Translations under genes and position numbers: made by a program
Origin: Escherichia coli
GTDB taxonomy: Bacteria > Pseudomonadota > Gammaproteobacteria > Enterobacterales > Enterobacteriaceae
DNA length: 64,000 nt
Reading direction: 5' to 3' (one strand)
NCBI RefSeq assembly: GCF_003334785.1
Contig: NZ_QOWV01000001.1
Shown here: positions 19,235 through 43,516 of the stretch, in pieces
Layout: the number at the start of each line of letters is the position of its first letter
How positions within the stretch are numbered: position 1 is the stretch's first letter
Notes under the pieces: model-generated
Seen by the model: the letters and a program-made list of their open reading frames with translations, nothing else
Databases searched by the model: none
Told to the model about the DNA's origin: nothing

Positions 19235-20287
19235 ATGAAAAAAATACCCTGCGTGATGATGCGAGGTGGAACCTCGAGGGGCGCGTTCCTGTTAGCGGAA
19301 CATTTACCCGAAGATCAAACGCAGCGCGATAAAATATTGATGGCAATTATGGGTTCCGGTAACGATCTGGAAATTGACGGTATTGGCGGCGGTAATCCAC
19401 TGACCAGTAAAGTCGCCATTATTAGCCGTTCCAGCGATCCGCGTGCTGATGTCGATTATCTGTTTGCGCAGGTAATCGTTCATGAGCAACGTGTCGATAC
19501 CACGCCTAACTGCGGCAATATGCTGTCTGGTGTTGGGGCATTCGCCATTGAAAATGGTTTGATTGCAGCGACTTCGCCAGTTACTCGCGTACGTATCCGC
19601 AACGTCAATACGGGTACGTTCATCGAAGCTGATGTGCAAACGCCAAATGGTGTTGTCGAGTACGAGGGTAGCGCCAGAATTGACGGCGTACCGGGTACTG
19701 CCGCACCGGTTGCGCTCACTTTCCTGAATGCCGCTGGAACCAAAACCGGAAAAGTTTTCCCGACTGATAATCAGATTGATTATTTTGACGATGTCCCGGT
19801 GACCTGTATCGATATGGCGATGCCAGTCGTCATTATTCCGGCTGAATATCTGGGAAAAACAGGTTATGAATTACCGGCGGAACTGGATGCCGACAAAGCA
19901 TTATTAGCCCGCATTGAATCTATCCGTCTACAAGCGGGTAAAGCAATGGGCTTAGGTGATGTCAGTAATATGGTTATCCCTAAACCTGTGCTTATTTCTC
20001 CAGCGCAGAAAGGCGGGGCAATTAATGTGCGTTATTTTATGCCGCATTCTTGCCATCGCGCGCTGGCGATAACCGGTGCTATTGCTATTTCCAGTAGTTG
20101 TGCATTGGAAGGCACCGTCACCCGACAAATCGTCCCTTCTGTAGGATACGGCAATATCAATATTGAACACCCCAGTGGTGCGCTCGACGTTCATTTAAGT
20201 AATGAAGGTCAGGATGCCACGACGTTACGCGCATCTGTTATTCGGACGACCAGAAAAATATTTTCCGGTGAAGTTTATCTTCCCTGA
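19235..20287 (+). CDS. ybhH: PrpF/AcnD-accessory-like isomerase family protein
   Basis: 350-aa ORF; the family assignment is from memory. Confidence 0.8.
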   Translation: MKKIPCVMMRGGTSRGAFLLAEHLPEDQTQRDKILMAIMGSGNDLEIDGIGGGNPLTSKVAIISRSSDPRADVDYLFAQVIVHEQRVDTTPNCGNMLSGVGAFAIENGLIAATSPVTRVRIRNVNTGTFIEADVQTPNGVVEYEGSARIDGVPGTAAPVALTFLNAAGTKTGKVFPTDNQIDYFDDVPVTCIDMAMPVVIIPAEYLGKTGYELPAELDADKALLARIESIRLQAGKAMGLGDVSNMVIPKPVLISPAQKGGAINVRYFMPHSCHRALAITGAIAISSSCALEGTVTRQIVPSVGYGNINIEHPSGALDVHLSNEGQDATTLRASVIRTTRKIFSGEVYLP

Positions 20288-37770: not shown

Positions 37771-38223
37771 ATGGCAGAAACCAAAATTGTTGTTGGTCCG
37801 CAGCCGTTCAGCGTAGGAGAAGAGTACCCGTGGCTGGCGGAGCGTGACGAAGACGGTGCGGTAGTCACCTTTACTGGTAAGGTGCGCAACCATAACCTGG
37901 GCGACAGCGTCAACGCATTAACCCTCGAACACTATCCGGGGATGACTGAAAAAGCACTGGCAGAAATTGTTGATGAAGCGCGTAACCGCTGGCCGCTGGG
38001 GCGCGTCACTGTGATTCACCGCATCGGGGAATTATGGCCGGGCGATGAAATCGTTTTTGTCGGTGTCACCAGTGCGCATCGCAGCAGTGCGTTTGAAGCC
38101 GGGCAGTTTATTATGGATTATCTCAAAACCCGCGCACCGTTCTGGAAGCGCGAAGCCACGCCGGAAGGCGACCGCTGGGTTGAAGCTCGGGAGAGCGATC
38201 AGCAGGCGGCAAAACGCTGGTAG
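37771..38223 (+). CDS. moaE: Molybdopterin synthase catalytic subunit
   Basis: 150-aa ORF. Confidence 0.93.
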   Translation: MAETKIVVGPQPFSVGEEYPWLAERDEDGAVVTFTGKVRNHNLGDSVNALTLEHYPGMTEKALAEIVDEARNRWPLGRVTVIHRIGELWPGDEIVFVGVTSAHRSSAFEAGQFIMDYLKTRAPFWKREATPEGDRWVEARESDQQAAKRW

Positions 38224-38233
38224 TTTTTTGTTA

Positions 38234-38260
38234 GCCGGATAAGGCACCGCTGCGTCCGGC
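38234..38260. repeat. Single REP-like palindrome
   Basis: gccggataaggcaccgctgcgtccggc downstream of moaE. Confidence 0.55.
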
Positions 38261-38359
38261 AATTTCACCGCTCAGTACATACGTTTACGCTGCGTCGATG
38301 CACAGCCTCATCATTTTGCAGTATCCTTAAGATATTCCTTATATCTTCAGGAGATCGTC

Positions 38360-39064
38360 ATGGACAGATTCCCACGTTCTGATTCAATCGTACAACCCCG
38401 GGCTGGCTTGCAAACTTATATGGCTCAAGTCTATGGCTGGATGACCGTTGGCTTGTTGCTGACCGCATTTGTTGCCTGGTATGCGGCTAATTCCGCGGCC
38501 GTGATGGAGCTGTTGTTCACTAACCGTGTCTTTTTAATCGGTCTGATCATCGCGCAATTAGCATTGGTTATTGTGTTATCAGCGATGATTCAAAAGCTGA
38601 GCGCAGGTGTAACGACGATGCTCTTTATGCTTTATTCGGCGCTGACGGGTCTTACGCTTTCCAGTATATTCATTGTCTATACCGCTGCTTCTATCGCCAG
38701 TACTTTCGTCGTTACTGCCGGGATGTTCGGCGCAATGAGCCTGTACGGTTACACCACGAAGCGCGATTTAAGTGGCTTTGGCAATATGCTGTTTATGGCG
38801 TTAATCGGCATTGTGCTGGCATCGCTGGTCAACTTCTGGTTGAAAAGCGAAGCATTGATGTGGGCAGTTACCTACATCGGCGTGATTGTCTTTGTCGGAT
38901 TGACGGCGTATGACACGCAGAAACTGAAAAATATGGGTGAGCAGATTGATACCCGCGACACGTCGAACCTGCGCAAATATTCCATTCTTGGCGCGTTAAC
39001 CTTGTATCTGGACTTCATCAACCTGTTCCTGATGTTGTTGCGGATCTTCGGCAACCGCCGTTAA
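38360..39064 (+). CDS. ybhL: Bax-inhibitor-1/YccA-family inner membrane protein
   Basis: 234-aa ORF with seven predicted TM segments. Confidence 0.85.
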   Translation: MDRFPRSDSIVQPRAGLQTYMAQVYGWMTVGLLLTAFVAWYAANSAAVMELLFTNRVFLIGLIIAQLALVIVLSAMIQKLSAGVTTMLFMLYSALTGLTLSSIFIVYTAASIASTFVVTAGMFGAMSLYGYTTKRDLSGFGNMLFMALIGIVLASLVNFWLKSEALMWAVTYIGVIVFVGLTAYDTQKLKNMGEQIDTRDTSNLRKYSILGALTLYLDFINLFLMLLRIFGNRR

Positions 39065-39082
39065 TTCTTTTTCACCATCACT

Positions 39083-39110
39083 ATCCCGGCCATGTGTCGG
39101 GATTTTTTTC
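39083..39110 (+). terminator. Rho-independent terminator after ybhL
   Basis: atcccg/cgggat hairpin followed by ttttttt. Confidence 0.7.
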
Positions 39111-39268
39111 TTACTAAAAACGACACTTAACAAGTACCAGGTATAAAATATGCCTTATGGACGAGCGGAAGCGTTTTCTGTATCCATAAATGCAAAAGTA
39201 TTTTGTATGCGTGGTTTTAAATTTATTGATGGTGAATATTAATATTTTTTCTAAGGATAACTAAAAGA

Positions 39269-39982
39269 ATGGAATCATACTCGCAAAACAGCAATAAATT
39301 AGATTTTCAGCACGAGGCCAGGATATTAAACGGTATATGGCTCATTACCGCTTTAGGTTTGGTGGCAACCGCAGGACTAGCCTGGGGAGCTAAGTATCTC
39401 GAAATTACGGCAACCAAATATGATTCACCACCAATGTATGTCGCCATAGGGTTATTATTACTTTGTATGTATGGCTTAAGTAAGGATATCAACAAGATAA
39501 ATGCCGCCATCGCGGGCGTAATATATCTGTTTTTACTCTCTTTGGTGGCGATTGTCGTTGCAAGTTTAGTTCCTGTATATGCCATTATCATCGTGTTCAG
39601 CACTGCGGGCGCGATGTTTTTAATCAGTATGCTGGCCGGTTTATTATTTAATGTTGATCCTGGTTCTCACCGTTTTATCATTATGATGACGTTGACAGGG
39701 TTGGCCCTGGTAATCATCGTGAATGCGGCATTAATGAGTGAACGGCCCATTTGGGTAATAAGTTGCTTAATGATTGTGTTATGGTCAGGCATTATCTCGC
39801 ATGGACGAAATAAGCTCCTTGAATTGGCGGGGAAATGCCATAGTGAAGAGTTGTGGAGTCCGGTTCGTTGCGCTTTTACAGGTGCATTAACACTCTATTA
39901 CTATTTTATCGGCTTCTTTGGGATACTTGCCGCGATAGCTATAACGCTTGTCTGGCAAAGGCATACGCGTTTTTTTCATTAG
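39269..39982 (+). CDS. ybhM: BI-1-like inner membrane protein
   Basis: 237-aa polytopic membrane ORF; AT-rich by eye. Confidence 0.8.
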   Translation: MESYSQNSNKLDFQHEARILNGIWLITALGLVATAGLAWGAKYLEITATKYDSPPMYVAIGLLLLCMYGLSKDINKINAAIAGVIYLFLLSLVAIVVASLVPVYAIIIVFSTAGAMFLISMLAGLLFNVDPGSHRFIIMMTLTGLALVIIVNAALMSERPIWVISCLMIVLWSGIISHGRNKLLELAGKCHSEELWSPVRCAFTGALTLYYYFIGFFGILAAIAITLVWQRHTRFFH

Positions 39983-40017
39983 CCGTAAATGCACATACTA
40001 AAGAACTTAACTAAACT

Positions 40018-40974
40018 TCACATCGCCGCTTCATTTTTCGCCCGTAGCTTCTTCGCCTGGCTTTCCAGCAACAGGTAACAGATCAGCGCCAGCAGCAGTG
40101 GGATAAAGTAATACAGCACACGGTAAGCGAGTAGGGCGGCGATAATTGTACCTTTGGAGGTATGCTCCCCAGCCAGTAGTGCGATAAACACCGCTTCCAG
40201 CACACCGATCCCCGCCGGAATATGCACGATGACGCCAGCAATACTACTAACCAGTAACACGCCCAGTACAAAGAAATAGTTCACGCTTTGACCAAGTAAC
40301 AGCCAGATAATCGCCCCCATTACCATCCAGTTAACGCTGGAAATCAGCATCTGAGCGAGGGCGAATTTCCATGAAGGCAGCACCAGCTTTTGCCCTTTGA
40401 TGGTCATATGGCGGTGCTTCGCGAAAGCGCAAAACCACAAATAAACCGCGATAATCATCAGTAAGCCAATGCCGAGAATACGCAGCGTAGTTTGATCGAC
40501 ATACCAGTGATCCGGCAACTCCACCACGCCTGCGGTAAAGATAATCCCTGCCAGTAAAATGTAGCCCAGCCAGTTGGTGGTAATACTGAGCGAGAAAATC
40601 CGCGTAATAGTGCTACCGGGCAACCCCAGACGAGAGTACAAACGATAGCGCATACCAATGCCGCCGACCCAGGTACTGAGCGTCAGGTTGAAGGCGTAGC
40701 AGATAAACGACACCAGCATCACCTGGCGCTTCGCCAGTTTGTGACCGCAGTAAAAGCGGGCGAGCAGGTCATAGCAGCCGTAAATCAGATAGCTGACGAC
40801 CACCAGCCCGACCGCACTAAGCAGCGCAACGCGATTGTAGTCGCGGATGACCTTCCAGACCTCTTCCCAGTCCACTTTTTTGGCGTAGACCACCAGCAAC
40901 ACAATCACCGCGATAAAAAACAGCCAGGTGAGGATCTTCTTTGCTAAGCGCCAGCGCGGGTGTGATTTACTCAT
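40018..40974 (-). CDS. ybhN: Inner membrane protein, UPF0104 / lysyl-PG-synthase-like C-terminal domain family
   Basis: 318-aa membrane ORF; its start overlaps the clsB stop (TGATG). Confidence 0.85.
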   Translation of the reverse strand: MSKSHPRWRLAKKILTWLFFIAVIVLLVVYAKKVDWEEVWKVIRDYNRVALLSAVGLVVVSYLIYGCYDLLARFYCGHKLAKRQVMLVSFICYAFNLTLSTWVGGIGMRYRLYSRLGLPGSTITRIFSLSITTNWLGYILLAGIIFTAGVVELPDHWYVDQTTLRILGIGLLMIIAVYLWFCAFAKHRHMTIKGQKLVLPSWKFALAQMLISSVNWMVMGAIIWLLLGQSVNYFFVLGVLLVSSIAGVIVHIPAGIGVLEAVFIALLAGEHTSKGTIIAALLAYRVLYYFIPLLLALICYLLLESQAKKLRAKNEAAM

Positions 40975-43105: not shown

Positions 43106-43516
43106 ATGAAGTGGCAACAACGTGTTCGTGTCGCAACGGGTCTAAGTTGCTGGCAGATTATGTTGCATTTACTGGTAGTGGCGCTGCTGGTGGTGGGCTG
43201 GATGAGTAAGACTCTGGTTCACGTCGGCGTGGGATTATGCGCACTGTATTGTGTCACGGTAGTGATGATGCTGGTGTTTCAGCGCCACCCCGAGCAACGC
43301 TGGCGTGAGGTGGCAGACGTGCTGGAAGAGCTGACCACGACCTGGTATTTTGGCGCAGCGCTGATTGTGCTGTGGCTGTTGTCCCGCGTTCTGGAAAACA
43401 ACTTTTTGCTGGCAATTGCAGGGCTGGCAATCCTTGCCGGCCCGGCGGTAGTGTCTTTGCTGGCGAAAGATAAGAAGTTACATCACCTTACGTCTAAACA
43501 TCGCGTACGCCGCTGA
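43106..43516 (+). CDS. ybhQ: Inner membrane protein
   Basis: 136-aa ORF with four predicted TM segments. Confidence 0.8.

What the first reader, a model, noticed from the sequence alone, without database searches (positions are those of the whole stretch)
38360..39982. Tandem BI-1-family membrane proteins ybhL and ybhM with contrasting base composition
Two adjacent same-strand polytopic membrane proteins of the Bax-inhibitor-1/YccA type are separated by a terminator and an AT-rich promoter-like spacer. ybhM is visibly more AT-rich than ybhL and the surrounding core genes, which suggests separate acquisition or relaxed selection. BI-1 homologues modulate FtsH-dependent proteolysis or ion leak, and the function of this pair is unknown.
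Basis: partly seen in the sequence, partly recalled or inferred. Interest (0 to 1): 0.4.

Follow-up and report, generated by a model that had tools for sequence, protein, structure and literature searches.

The report
ybhM: leftover of a variable islet
The two neighbouring E. coli membrane-protein genes ybhL and ybhM are both real Bax-inhibitor-1 relatives, but ybhL is a conserved core gene and ybhM is a fast-evolving, AT-rich add-on left from a variable gene islet that most related bacteria lack.

Summary
The window is E. coli K-12-like DNA. ybhL (38360-39064) and ybhM (39269-39982) both match Pfam Bax1-I. A strong terminator hairpin and a 33% GC spacer with a promoter separate them.

ybhM is compositionally foreign. 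Its GC is 0.426, against 0.501±0.011 expected for the same protein with neighbour codon usage. Its GC3 is 0.451 against 0.614±0.029. ybhL is as expected.

ybhM is not conserved in the family. Only 3 of 80 YbhL-anchored Enterobacterales species have any YbhM-like gene there. In 36 of them ybhN follows ybhL within 150 bp. One E. coli genome shows the empty site.

Within E. coli the slot holds 0 to 6 genes, up to three of them YbhM-like. About 11% of complete genomes lack a near-full-length (at least 80%) ybhM match. dN/dS for ybhM is 0.10-0.61, against 0-0.06 for most neighbours (moaD up to 0.16).

YbhM has lost both aspartates of the BI-1 pH sensor, which YbhL keeps.

Longer versions of the islet carry immunity-type genes: SUKH-4 in E. 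coli and Sip4-like genes in Salmonella. An immunity-like protective role is therefore possible but untested.

The genes are already annotated. Interest is moderate.

The parts
38299..38327 (+). ybhL promoter reported by genomic SELEX (TGCACA-17-TATCCT) in the moaE-ybhL spacer
   Evidence: The hexamers were read in the sequence. The promoter is listed in PMC3946193. It was not tested here.
38360..39064 (+). ybhL, a core BI-1/TMBIM-family inner-membrane protein of 234 aa that keeps the di-aspartate sensor (D185, D218)
   Evidence: Pfam Bax1-I 1.1e-62. It aligns to BsYetJ 4pgr at E=1e-8, including the YD and LYLDFINLF motifs. Those motifs are kept in 77/80 and 80/80 orthologues. Orthologues of 71-100% identity occur across Enterobacterales. 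dN/dS is 0-0.03.
39083..39110 (+). ybhL intrinsic terminator: an 8-bp GC-rich hairpin plus a T7 run. In species without ybhM the same hairpin lies between the convergent genes ybhL and ybhN.
   Evidence: dG -11.6, z -3.5. The hairpin is conserved next to the ybhN 3' end in the empty-site E. coli L015 and in Pseudocitrobacter L027.
39107..40013 (.). AT-rich inserted segment of about 907 bp, the K-12 form of the variable islet between the ybhL terminator and the ybhN stop codon
   Evidence: Boundaries come from alignment with the empty site of E. coli L015, where 45 bp separate ybhL and ybhN. The low-GC trough of 0.36-0.44 coincides with the segment. Inside it, 39111-39235 is replaced by an 840-bp segment carrying a further BI-1 gene in 754 of 5426 E. 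coli genomes.
39120..39149 (+). ybhM promoter (ACGACA-16-TATAAA) in an H-NS-bound spacer
   Evidence: Consensus scan. The RpoD genomic SELEX table lists this promoter with an HNS flag (PMC3946193).
39269..39982 (+). ybhM, an accessory and divergent BI-1-fold protein of 237 aa with 7 predicted helices. The sensor aspartates are replaced by G179 and Y212.
   Evidence: Pfam Bax1-I 1.1e-20. AF2 model with pLDDT 85, pTM 0.80 and 7 helices. Only one full-length 50%-identity cluster among 1.84 billion representatives, with the next relatives at 35% identity or less. GC and codon deviation. dN/dS 0.10-0.61.
40018..40974 (-). ybhN, the convergent core gene that forms the right border of the slot (MprF-type flippase-like domain)
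   Evidence: ybhN lies directly next to ybhL in 36 of 80 species.

Best explanation
ybhL is a conserved housekeeping BI-1/TMBIM-family gene. It ends at a strong hairpin terminator that, in most Enterobacteriaceae, abuts the 3' end of the convergent gene ybhN.

In Escherichia and a few other lineages, an AT-rich accessory islet sits in the gap just after that hairpin. Its hallmark cargo is a small, fast-diverging clade of BI-1-fold seven-helix membrane proteins ('YbhM-like'). These are present in one to three tandem copies, often with other small genes.

E. coli K-12 carries a reduced form: ybhM alone, about 907 bp of 42% GC DNA. ybhM is transcribed from its own sigma-70 promoter in a spacer that binds H-NS, so it is probably poorly expressed. 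ybhM is still under purifying selection, but much weaker than its neighbours, and it is dispensable: it is deleted, truncated or hit by IS elements in many strains.

Mechanism (inferred, about 0.3): YbhM has lost both aspartates of the BI-1 pH-sensing latch. Longer islets carry recognised immunity-type genes. YbhM-like proteins therefore most likely act as membrane-embedded protective (immunity-like) factors against membrane-depolarising insults, and not as pH-gated Ca2+/H+ leak channels.

The gene identities, composition, distribution, polymorphism and selection measures are shown here. The expression level and the protective role are inferred.
For: Identity and anatomy.

Foreign composition that amino-acid content does not explain. 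The low-GC trough matches the insert boundaries.

Sporadic distribution:
- A YbhM-like gene is present downstream of ybhL in 3 of 80 species loci. ybhN lies within 150 bp in 36.
- An empty site exists in E. coli L015.
- An exhaustive phmmer search finds one full-length cluster and about ten related clusters at 35% identity or less.
- By Foldseek, the AFDB neighbours are almost only enterobacterial YbhM-like proteins, with TM 0.8-0.94.

Variable islet:
- mid+ybhM occurs in 754 of 5426 E. coli genomes.
- Four-gene and six-gene forms exist (L095, L096).
- L008 has an array of ybhL plus three YbhM-like genes.
- Salmonella has a YbhM-like gene plus two membrane genes in the slot (L014). The same cassette lies beside an IS element at another locus (L011/L012).
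- L010 has two copies plus fragments.

Relaxed but real selection: dN/dS is 0.10, 0.40, 0.13, 0.61 and 0.28, against 0-0.06 for most flanking genes (moaD up to 0.16). 4788 of 5426 genomes have a near-full-length match, and the rest are truncated or deleted. IS1, IS200 and IS5 insertions are seen.

H-NS site and own promoter: PMC3946193.

Loss of the di-aspartate sensor: YbhL has D185 and D218, aligned to the BsYetJ motifs and conserved in 77-80 of 80 orthologues. YbhM has G179 and Y212.

Immunity-type neighbours:
- The L096 186-aa protein matches Pfam SUKH-4 immunity protein at 3.7e-5.
- The Salmonella 202-aa and 186-aa proteins match NCBIfam Sip4 immunity at 7e-5 and 8e-8. Sip4 is an inner-membrane immunity protein to the pore-forming T6SS effector Ssp4 (PMC12669606).
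- In other species the same slot holds a PLD-family protein with three tandem Sel1-repeat lipoproteins, and a toxin-antitoxin-like pair (that naming is my reading of the sequences).
Against: - No toxin or effector gene lies next to any YbhM-like gene examined.
- The Sip4 and SUKH-4 matches are weak (23-32 bits against a curated cut-off of 240; E 3.7e-5). Those genes are absent from K-12.
- YbhM-like and Sip4-like proteins are not homologous (hhalign probability 0.4%).
- No integrase, tRNA or clear target duplication marks the insert. The transfer mechanism is therefore unknown and may be flanking homologous recombination.
- One YbhM-like gene (Phytobacter, L071) is GC-rich like its host, so AT-richness is not universal.
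- The direction of evolution in E. coli was not resolved by a phylogeny: K-12 could be a reduced remnant, or the longer forms could be later accretions.
- H-NS silencing and low expression rest on one SELEX table and on composition, not on expression data.
Confidence: 0.7

Rival explanations
1. ybhM is a decaying relic with no present function. Under this reading its AT-richness and fast evolution reflect only relaxed selection after duplication or acquisition.
For: About 11% of complete E. coli genomes lack a near-full-length match, most through a 324-bp internal deletion. IS1, IS200, IS5 and IS91 events are seen. Many truncated protein clusters exist. dN/dS is 3 to 20 times that of most neighbours, reaching 0.4-0.6 in some pairs. 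E. albertii L016 holds an 81-aa remnant.
Against: dN/dS is below 1 in all five comparisons and is 0.10-0.13 across the deepest E. coli splits, where dS is about 0.22-0.26. A near-full-length match is kept in 88% of genomes despite up to 7% nucleotide divergence. YbhM is 88-89% identical in E. albertii and E. fergusonii. Invariant residues are shared across the whole YbhM-like clade at 23-34% identity.
Confidence: 0.2
2. YbhM works like canonical BI-1 family proteins. It would be either a pH-gated Ca2+/H+ leak channel (as BsYetJ) or an FtsH/HflKC-associated modulator (as YccA, or TMBIM5 with the m-AAA protease), serving as a condition-specific paralogue of YbhL.
For: It matches Pfam Bax1-I at 1.1e-20 over 203 of 207 model positions. 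It has seven predicted helices. It is homologous to YbhL at E=1e-12. It is adjacent to ybhL. The YccA-FtsH and TMBIM5-AFG3L2 precedents come from established knowledge and PMC9379554.
Against: Both aspartates of the di-aspartyl sensor are replaced (G179, Y212). The TM7 aspartate is lost in nearly all clade members. There is no match to the NCBIfam YccA model, and even YbhL scores only 23 bits against a cut-off of 353. The YbhM-like profile finds no PDB sequence, and the model does not retrieve YetJ. The sporadic, strain-variable distribution is unlike a housekeeping modulator.
Confidence: 0.25
3. ybhM is an old core tandem duplicate of ybhL. Under this reading its AT-richness simply reflects a hydrophobic amino-acid composition and low expression.
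For: Both genes are BI-1 family, on the same strand and adjacent. Membrane proteins are T-rich at codon positions 1 and 2, and ybhL itself has GC 0.487 for that reason.
Against: GC3 and overall GC are 5.6 and 6.8 standard deviations below expectation for the same protein sequence. The gene is absent from 77 of 80 species at this locus. An empty site exists within E. coli. The slot protein is 27% identical between E. coli and Salmonella where flanking proteins are 87-94% identical.
Confidence: 0.03

Closest known systems
BsYetJ / TMBIM (Bax inhibitor-1) family, Pfam PF01027
   Same: Both YbhL and YbhM match the family profile over its full length and have seven predicted helices. YbhL aligns to the BsYetJ crystal-structure sequence, including the two sensor aspartates.
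   Different: YbhM has G179 and Y212 in place of the di-aspartyl latch. It belongs to a narrow enterobacterial clade at 35% identity or less to anything else. Its model matches canonical BI-1 AlphaFold models only at TM 0.5-0.77, and it does not retrieve BsYetJ.
E. coli YccA (FtsH modulator) and mitochondrial TMBIM5 (inhibitor of the m-AAA protease)
   Same: They belong to the same superfamily. They are the only bacterial and mitochondrial members with a worked-out role that does not need ion conduction alone (established knowledge; PMC9379554).
   Different: YbhM gives no match to the NCBIfam YccA equivalog, and YbhL scores far below its cut-off. YccA is a conserved core gene. ybhM is strain-variable and compositionally foreign.
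Orphan immunity-gene islands of polymorphic toxin and T6SS systems (for example Sip4, the inner-membrane immunity protein to the pore-former Ssp4, and SUKH-family immunity proteins)
   Same: The islet is AT-rich, varies in copy number and is polymorphic for presence or absence. It has tandem diverged paralogues and contains Sip4-like (Salmonella) and SUKH-4 (E. coli GF4-3) genes. Sip4 also sits in a small insertion within a core operon.
   Different: No cognate toxin is nearby. YbhM-like proteins are not homologous to Sip4. No BI-1-fold immunity protein is described in the literature I could search. The family matches are weak.
H-NS-bound, horizontally acquired AT-rich islets of E. coli
   Same: The islet has low GC, an H-NS site in the upstream spacer, a sporadic distribution and an empty site in a conspecific genome.
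   Different: It has no integrase, tRNA or att site. It is very small (0.9 kb in K-12). Its cargo is homologous to the adjacent core gene ybhL, so its origin may be local duplication followed by exchange, and not import from afar.

Membership tests
BI-1/TMBIM (Pfam Bax1-I PF01027) | Significant full-length match to the family profile | tested here: met
   YbhL 1.1e-62 (model positions 1-207). YbhM 1.1e-20 (model positions 3-205).
BI-1/TMBIM (Pfam Bax1-I PF01027) | Seven transmembrane helices | tested here: met
   The AF2 model of YbhM has 7 helices, pLDDT 85.2 and pTM 0.80. Membrane topology was not tested.
BI-1/TMBIM (Pfam Bax1-I PF01027) | Di-aspartyl pH sensor in TM6/TM7 (the YD and LYLDF motifs of BsYetJ; which BsYetJ aspartates form the sensor is from my knowledge of that structure) | tested here: not met
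   YbhL has D185 and D218, aligned to the BsYetJ motifs and kept in 77/80 and 80/80 orthologues. YbhM has G179 and Y212. The TM7 aspartate is absent in 11 of 12 YbhM-like sequences. So the feature is met for YbhL and not met for YbhM.
BI-1/TMBIM (Pfam Bax1-I PF01027) | Structural superposition on the solved BsYetJ fold | tested here: inconclusive
BI-1/TMBIM (Pfam Bax1-I PF01027) | pH-dependent Ca2+/H+ leak activity | not testable with these tools
   This needs proteoliposome flux assays.
YccA-type FtsH modulator (NCBIfam NF007765) | Score above the curated equivalog cut-off | tested here: not met
   YbhL scores 23.3 bits against a cut-off of 353. YbhM has no hit.
YccA-type FtsH modulator (NCBIfam NF007765) | Binding to or degradation by FtsH/HflKC | not testable with these tools
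   This needs biochemistry or genetics.
Horizontally acquired genomic islet | Atypical base composition and codon usage relative to the flanks | tested here: met
   GC z -4.8. GC3 is 5.6 sd below the protein-matched expectation. Karlin B is 0.507 against 0.285±0.036.
Horizontally acquired genomic islet | Sporadic phylogenetic distribution with an empty site in close relatives | tested here: met
   3 of 80 species carry a YbhM-like gene there. The E. coli L015 empty site shows the hairpin directly followed by the ybhN end.
Horizontally acquired genomic islet | Mobility determinants (integrase, tRNA or att site, flanking repeats) | tested here: not met
   No such ORFs were found. Only short, weak repeats were found. 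An IS element lies next to the related cassette only at the second Salmonella locus. No real plasmid or phage copies were found.
Polymorphic-toxin or T6SS orphan immunity island | Presence of recognised immunity-protein families in the island | tested here: met
   SUKH-4 PF14435 at 3.7e-5 in E. coli GF4-3. Two Sip4-like proteins in Salmonella at 7e-5 and 8e-8. All matches are weak, and none of these genes is in K-12.
Polymorphic-toxin or T6SS orphan immunity island | Tandem diverged paralogues with strain-to-strain copy-number variation | tested here: met
   0 to 3 YbhM-like genes per slot.
Polymorphic-toxin or T6SS orphan immunity island | A cognate toxin that the protein neutralises | tested here: not met
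   No effector or toxin gene lies next to any YbhM-like gene in the 12 or so contexts examined. Neutralisation itself is not testable here.
Known anti-phage defence systems (PADLOC) | Match to a defence-system protein model | tested here: not met
   No hit for YbhM, mid, P0079, the Salmonella cassette or the accessory ORFs. No PHROG hits for the accessory ORFs.

The most novel reading that the evidence does not exclude
YbhM-like proteins are a previously unrecognised family of inner-membrane immunity (protective) proteins built on the BI-1 fold. They would be kept as orphan arrays downstream of ybhL in Escherichia, Salmonella and a few relatives. They would neutralise or tolerate pore-forming, membrane-depolarising toxins delivered by competitors (T6SS, CDI or bacteriocins). 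Under this reading the BI-1 fold has been recruited from ion-leak and protease-modulating roles into inter-bacterial defence.
Probability: 0.2. Interest if true: 0.7.

Novelty: new variant of a known kind. Interest (0 to 1): 0.4.

Why it matters
ybhL and ybhM are usually listed together as 'the BI-1 paralogues of E. coli'. This analysis shows that they are very different kinds of gene.

ybhL is the conserved orthologue, with an intact pH-sensor motif. It is the right subject for BI-1 physiology in enterobacteria.

ybhM is a genus-restricted, H-NS-associated accessory gene without that motif. Negative phenotypes in K-12 and function transfer from YetJ or YccA are therefore both uninformative for it.

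The site between the ybhL terminator and ybhN is a small recombination or insertion hotspot. It collects immunity-type cargo in several genera. That gives a concrete, testable lead for a family with no known function: protection against membrane-targeting toxins. If the lead fails, the result is still useful as a clean example of a core and accessory paralogue pair and of islet erosion in laboratory E. coli.

Tried and rejected
- A profile of the YbhM-like clade against PDB sequences gave no hit.
- PADLOC found nothing for YbhM-like and accessory proteins, and PHROGs found nothing for the accessory ORFs. I dropped a phage-defence or prophage reading.
- tblastn against plasmids and phages returned only mislabelled chromosomal records, or nothing. 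There is no evidence for plasmid or phage carriage.
- hhalign of YbhM-like against Sip4-like proteins showed no homology. I rejected the idea that Sip4 is itself a reduced BI-1 fold.
- Rfam found nothing in 38150-40100. The spacer holds no known RNA element.
- The profile search of the 5.8-billion-protein database with alignment A3 was swamped by E. coli YbhM words and added little. P0214 and P0215 turned out to be ordinary BI-1 genes in unrelated bacteria.
- The search for target-site duplications at the insert borders found only short, weak repeats that may be chance.
- A classical CAI could not be computed because the reference weights were not available in the sandbox. I used a neighbour-referenced codon-bias distance and protein-matched simulations instead.
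- A literature search for BI-1-type immunity proteins found none.
Full report
**1. What is there**

The window matches E. coli K-12: it differs from MG1655 by 13 mismatches over 41.9 kb. The finding's coordinates run exactly from the start of ybhL (38360-39064, +, 234 aa) to the stop of ybhM (39269-39982, +, 237 aa). The moaABCDE operon lies upstream. Downstream, the convergent genes ybhN-clsB-ybhP begin 35 bp after ybhM.

Both proteins match Pfam Bax1-I over nearly the whole model: YbhL at 1.1e-62 and YbhM at 1.1e-20. They are 25% identical to each other over 151 residues, E=1e-12.

An intrinsic terminator follows ybhL. It is a hairpin at 39083-39103 followed by T7, with dG -11.6 kcal/mol and z -3.5.

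The 204-bp spacer is 32.8% GC. It contains a sigma-70-like site at 39120-39149. Its -35 hexamer is the one in the ybhM promoter (ACGACA-16-TATAAA) that a genomic SELEX study of RpoD holoenzyme lists, and that study also flags an H-NS site in this spacer (PMC3946193). No Rfam family matches the region.

**2. The composition contrast is real and is not an amino-acid effect**

Among 37 annotated genes around the locus, ybhM has the lowest GC (0.423 against 0.538±0.024, z -4.8). It has the second-lowest GC3 (0.454 against 0.588±0.057).

I redrew synonymous codons for the YbhM protein from the pooled usage of its neighbours. That gives GC 0.501±0.011 and GC3 0.614±0.029. None of 2000 draws came down to the observed GC3. 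The codon-bias distance of ybhM to its neighbours is 0.507, against 0.285±0.036 expected.

The same test for ybhL gives observed values equal to expectation (GC 0.489 against 0.505; GC3 0.620 against 0.632). The mildly low GC of ybhL is therefore just what a hydrophobic protein costs.

The low-GC trough (0.36-0.44) runs from just after the ybhL terminator to the ybhN stop codon.

**3. ybhM is not conserved at this position**

A scan of one genome per GTDB species, anchored on YbhL, returned 80 loci across Enterobacterales with YbhL 71-100% identical.

| Gene arrangement downstream of ybhL | Loci (of 80) |
|---|---|
| ybhN within 150 bp | 36 |
| ybhN at 151-500 bp | 3 |
| ybhN at more than 500 bp | 7 |
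| next recognisable core gene is clsB, ybhQ or ybhR | 28 |
| no such gene inside the fetched locus | 6 |
| any YbhM-like gene downstream of ybhL | 3 |

The three loci with a YbhM-like gene are Escherichia albertii, a Pseudocitrobacter MAG and Phytobacter massiliensis.

The E. coli species representative itself (L015) has an empty site. The ybhL terminator hairpin is followed within a few bases by the ybhN 3' end, with 45 bp between the genes. The same hairpin-then-ybhN layout is seen in Pseudocitrobacter faecalis. This places the K-12 insert at about 39107-40013.

Between E. coli and Salmonella the flanking proteins MoaC, MoaE, YbhL, YbhN, ClsB and YbhP are 87-94% identical. The protein occupying the ybhM position is only 27% identical.

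**4. YbhM belongs to a small, fast-diverging clade**

An exhaustive phmmer search of 1.84 billion cluster representatives found one full-length YbhM cluster. The next relatives are at 35% identity or less (P0079, E=3e-27). About ten clusters have E<1e-10, and only 97 hits have E<1e-3, although the BI-1 family is very large.

A word-indexed search of 5.8 billion proteins found only Escherichia and Shigella sequences, many of them truncated.

An AlphaFold2 model (pLDDT 85, pTM 0.80, seven helices) finds its close structural neighbours (TM 0.8-0.94) almost only among enterobacterial YbhM-like proteins. These come from E. fergusonii (89% identity), E. albertii, Kluyvera georgiana, Superficieibacter electus, many Salmonella serovars, Phytobacter and Kosakonia. 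Canonical BI-1/YccA models match at TM 0.5-0.77.

Searches against solved structures did not recover BsYetJ. I treat that as inconclusive.

**5. The slot is a variable islet, and K-12 carries a short form**

- In 754 of 5426 complete E. coli genomes, the 125 bp at 39111-39235 are replaced by 840 bp encoding a further BI-1-family gene ('mid', 234 aa, GC 0.435) between ybhL and ybhM.
- Strain E400634 has mid, ybhM, a DUF3969 gene and a 73-aa ORF.
- Strain GF4-3 has six genes: mid, ybhM, a third YbhM-like gene (P0079-like), DUF3969, a 152-aa ORF and a 186-aa ORF. Its slot GC is 0.359.
- An assembly recorded as GCA_002207125.1 has ybhL followed by three YbhM-like genes.
- The P0079/DUF3969 block is rare in E. 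coli: 29 of 5426 genomes.
- ybhM is detectable in 5400 of 5426 genomes, but only 4788 have a match covering at least 80% of the gene. Many of the rest carry a 324-bp internal deletion that leaves a 129-aa ORF.
- IS1, IS200, IS5 and IS91 events hit the gene or the slot.

Other genera:
- Salmonella enterica has a YbhM-like gene plus 202-aa and 186-aa membrane proteins in the slot.
- The same three-gene cassette, 36-39% identical, occurs at a second Salmonella locus beside an IS transposase and genes of the ybeQ/ybeR/djlB type (Sel1 repeat, DUF1266 and DjlB_C proteins).
- An unassigned enterobacterial contig has two copies plus fragments, interleaved with small ORFs.
- Superficieibacter and Kosakonia have YbhM-like proteins but none in this slot, so their copies lie elsewhere.

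No real plasmid or phage copy was found.

**6. Selection**

Nei-Gojobori estimates for K-12 ybhM against five other alleles:

| Comparison | dN/dS for ybhM |
|---|---|
| ST131/B2 strain | 0.10 |
| O157:H7 | 0.40 |
| a divergent wastewater strain | 0.13 |
| O113 allele | 0.61 |
| L008 allele | 0.28 |

Most of the 13 flanking genes give 0-0.06, and ybhL gives 0-0.03. The 81-codon moaD reaches 0.13-0.16 in two pairs.

ybhM also shows the lowest nucleotide identity in the region: 93.1% to B2 strains, with 1256 genomes in the 90-95% band. Constraint is therefore much weaker than on core genes but has not vanished. The gene is dispensable yet not simply dead.

**7. What the protein can and cannot do**

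YbhL aligns with the Bacillus subtilis YetJ crystal-structure sequence (4pgr, E=1e-8). It keeps both aspartates in the two aligned motifs, AYD185TQ and LYLD218F. From my knowledge of the BsYetJ structure, these form the di-aspartyl pH sensor. The motifs are present in 77 of 80 and 80 of 80 orthologues.

In YbhM the aligned residues are G179 and Y212. Across the YbhM-like clade the first position is often Glu but variable, and the second is lost in all but one member. The canonical pH-gated Ca2+/H+ leak mechanism therefore cannot be assumed for YbhM.

Neither protein reaches the NCBIfam YccA equivalog cut-off.

**8. A lead on function**

Guilt by association points to inter-bacterial defence:
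- The 186-aa protein of the six-gene E. coli islet matches Pfam SUKH-4 immunity protein, E=3.7e-5.
- Both membrane proteins of the Salmonella cassette match the NCBIfam model for Sip4 (E 7e-5 and 8e-8, near full length, far below the curated cut-off). [quoted passage not shown]
- In other species the same slot holds a PLD-family protein with three tandem Sel1-repeat lipoproteins, and a pair of small ORFs that I read from their sequences as a toxin-antitoxin-like pair (not tested). It also holds unrelated cargo: a catalase, an EptA-like transferase and a transporter.

Three results count against this lead:
- No toxin gene sits beside any YbhM-like gene.
- YbhM-like and Sip4-like proteins are unrelated.
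- No BI-1-type immunity protein is described in the papers I could search.

I give the protective, immunity-like role about 0.3 as the mechanism within the best explanation. I give about 0.2 to the stronger claim that this is a true new immunity family.

**9. Verdict**

The genes are annotated and individually unremarkable.

The added value is threefold:
- ybhL and ybhM should not be treated as equivalent paralogues.
- ybhM is what remains in K-12 of a small hypervariable, H-NS-associated islet.
- The YbhM-like clade is a BI-1 variant without the sensor motif that keeps company with immunity genes.

Interest is moderate (0.4). The novelty class is a new variant of a known kind.

Noticed in passing
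window 39174-39194 and 39973-39993: A 21-nt direct repeat, 81% identical. One copy is in the ybhL-ybhM spacer and the other spans the ybhM stop codon (D2). It may be a relic of the 3' end of a lost tandem YbhM-like copy, or it may be chance.
   Followed up: no
L043 7763-12553 (Enterobacter sp. BIGb0383, same slot): A 611-aa PLD-family protein (Pfam PLDc_2) is followed by three tandem, about 328-aa Sel1-repeat lipoproteins. From my own knowledge the layout resembles T6SS Tle5/Tli5-type effector-immunity islands.
   Followed up: partly
L096 1847-5802 (E. coli GF4-3): This is the longest E. coli form of the islet, with six genes between ybhL and ybhN. They include three YbhM-like genes, DUF3969 and a SUKH-4 immunity-family protein. 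Slot GC is 0.359.
   Followed up: partly
L011 1-6683 and L012 (Salmonella enterica): The cassette of a YbhM-like gene plus two Sip4-like membrane genes also occurs away from ybhL. There it lies next to an IS (rve) transposase and Sel1, DUF1266 and DjlB_C genes.
   Followed up: partly
L016 8063-11247 (Escherichia albertii): The slot holds an EptA/CptA-like phosphoethanolamine transferase, an 81-aa C-terminal remnant of ybhM, a P0079-like gene and DUF3969.
   Followed up: partly
L004 4160-7102 (E. coli EC14): An IS91-family element replaces everything from the 3' part of ybhL to the middle of clsB. This removes ybhM and ybhN.
   Followed up: no
L010 1355-1795, L029 3141-3581, L013 199-606: A conserved 135-146-aa protein with one N-terminal hydrophobic helix precedes a YbhM-like gene on three independent contigs. 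A related 104-162-aa soluble protein follows the gene on two of them (L010, L029). Neither protein matches any family.
   Followed up: partly
window 19235-20287 (ybhH): ybhH has the lowest GC3 (0.439) of the 37 genes analysed, even lower than ybhM, with overall GC 0.488.
   Followed up: no
window 43478-43516: The convergent genes ybhQ (+) and ybhR (-) overlap by 39 bp at their 3' ends.
   Followed up: no
L034 and L048 (Superficieibacter electus, Kosakonia cowanii): AFDB lists YbhM-like proteins for these species, but their ybhL-ybhN slots contain none. Their copies must therefore lie elsewhere in the genome.
   Followed up: no
L052 7821-8416, L044 8234-10474, L092 8282-10853: Other cargo found in the same slot: a pair of small ORFs (80 and 118 aa) that I read as toxin-antitoxin-like in Siccibacter, a catalase plus a lipocalin-like lipoprotein in Pluralibacter, and an aminotransferase plus an MFS transporter in Photorhabdus. 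These names are my reading of the sequences.
   Followed up: no
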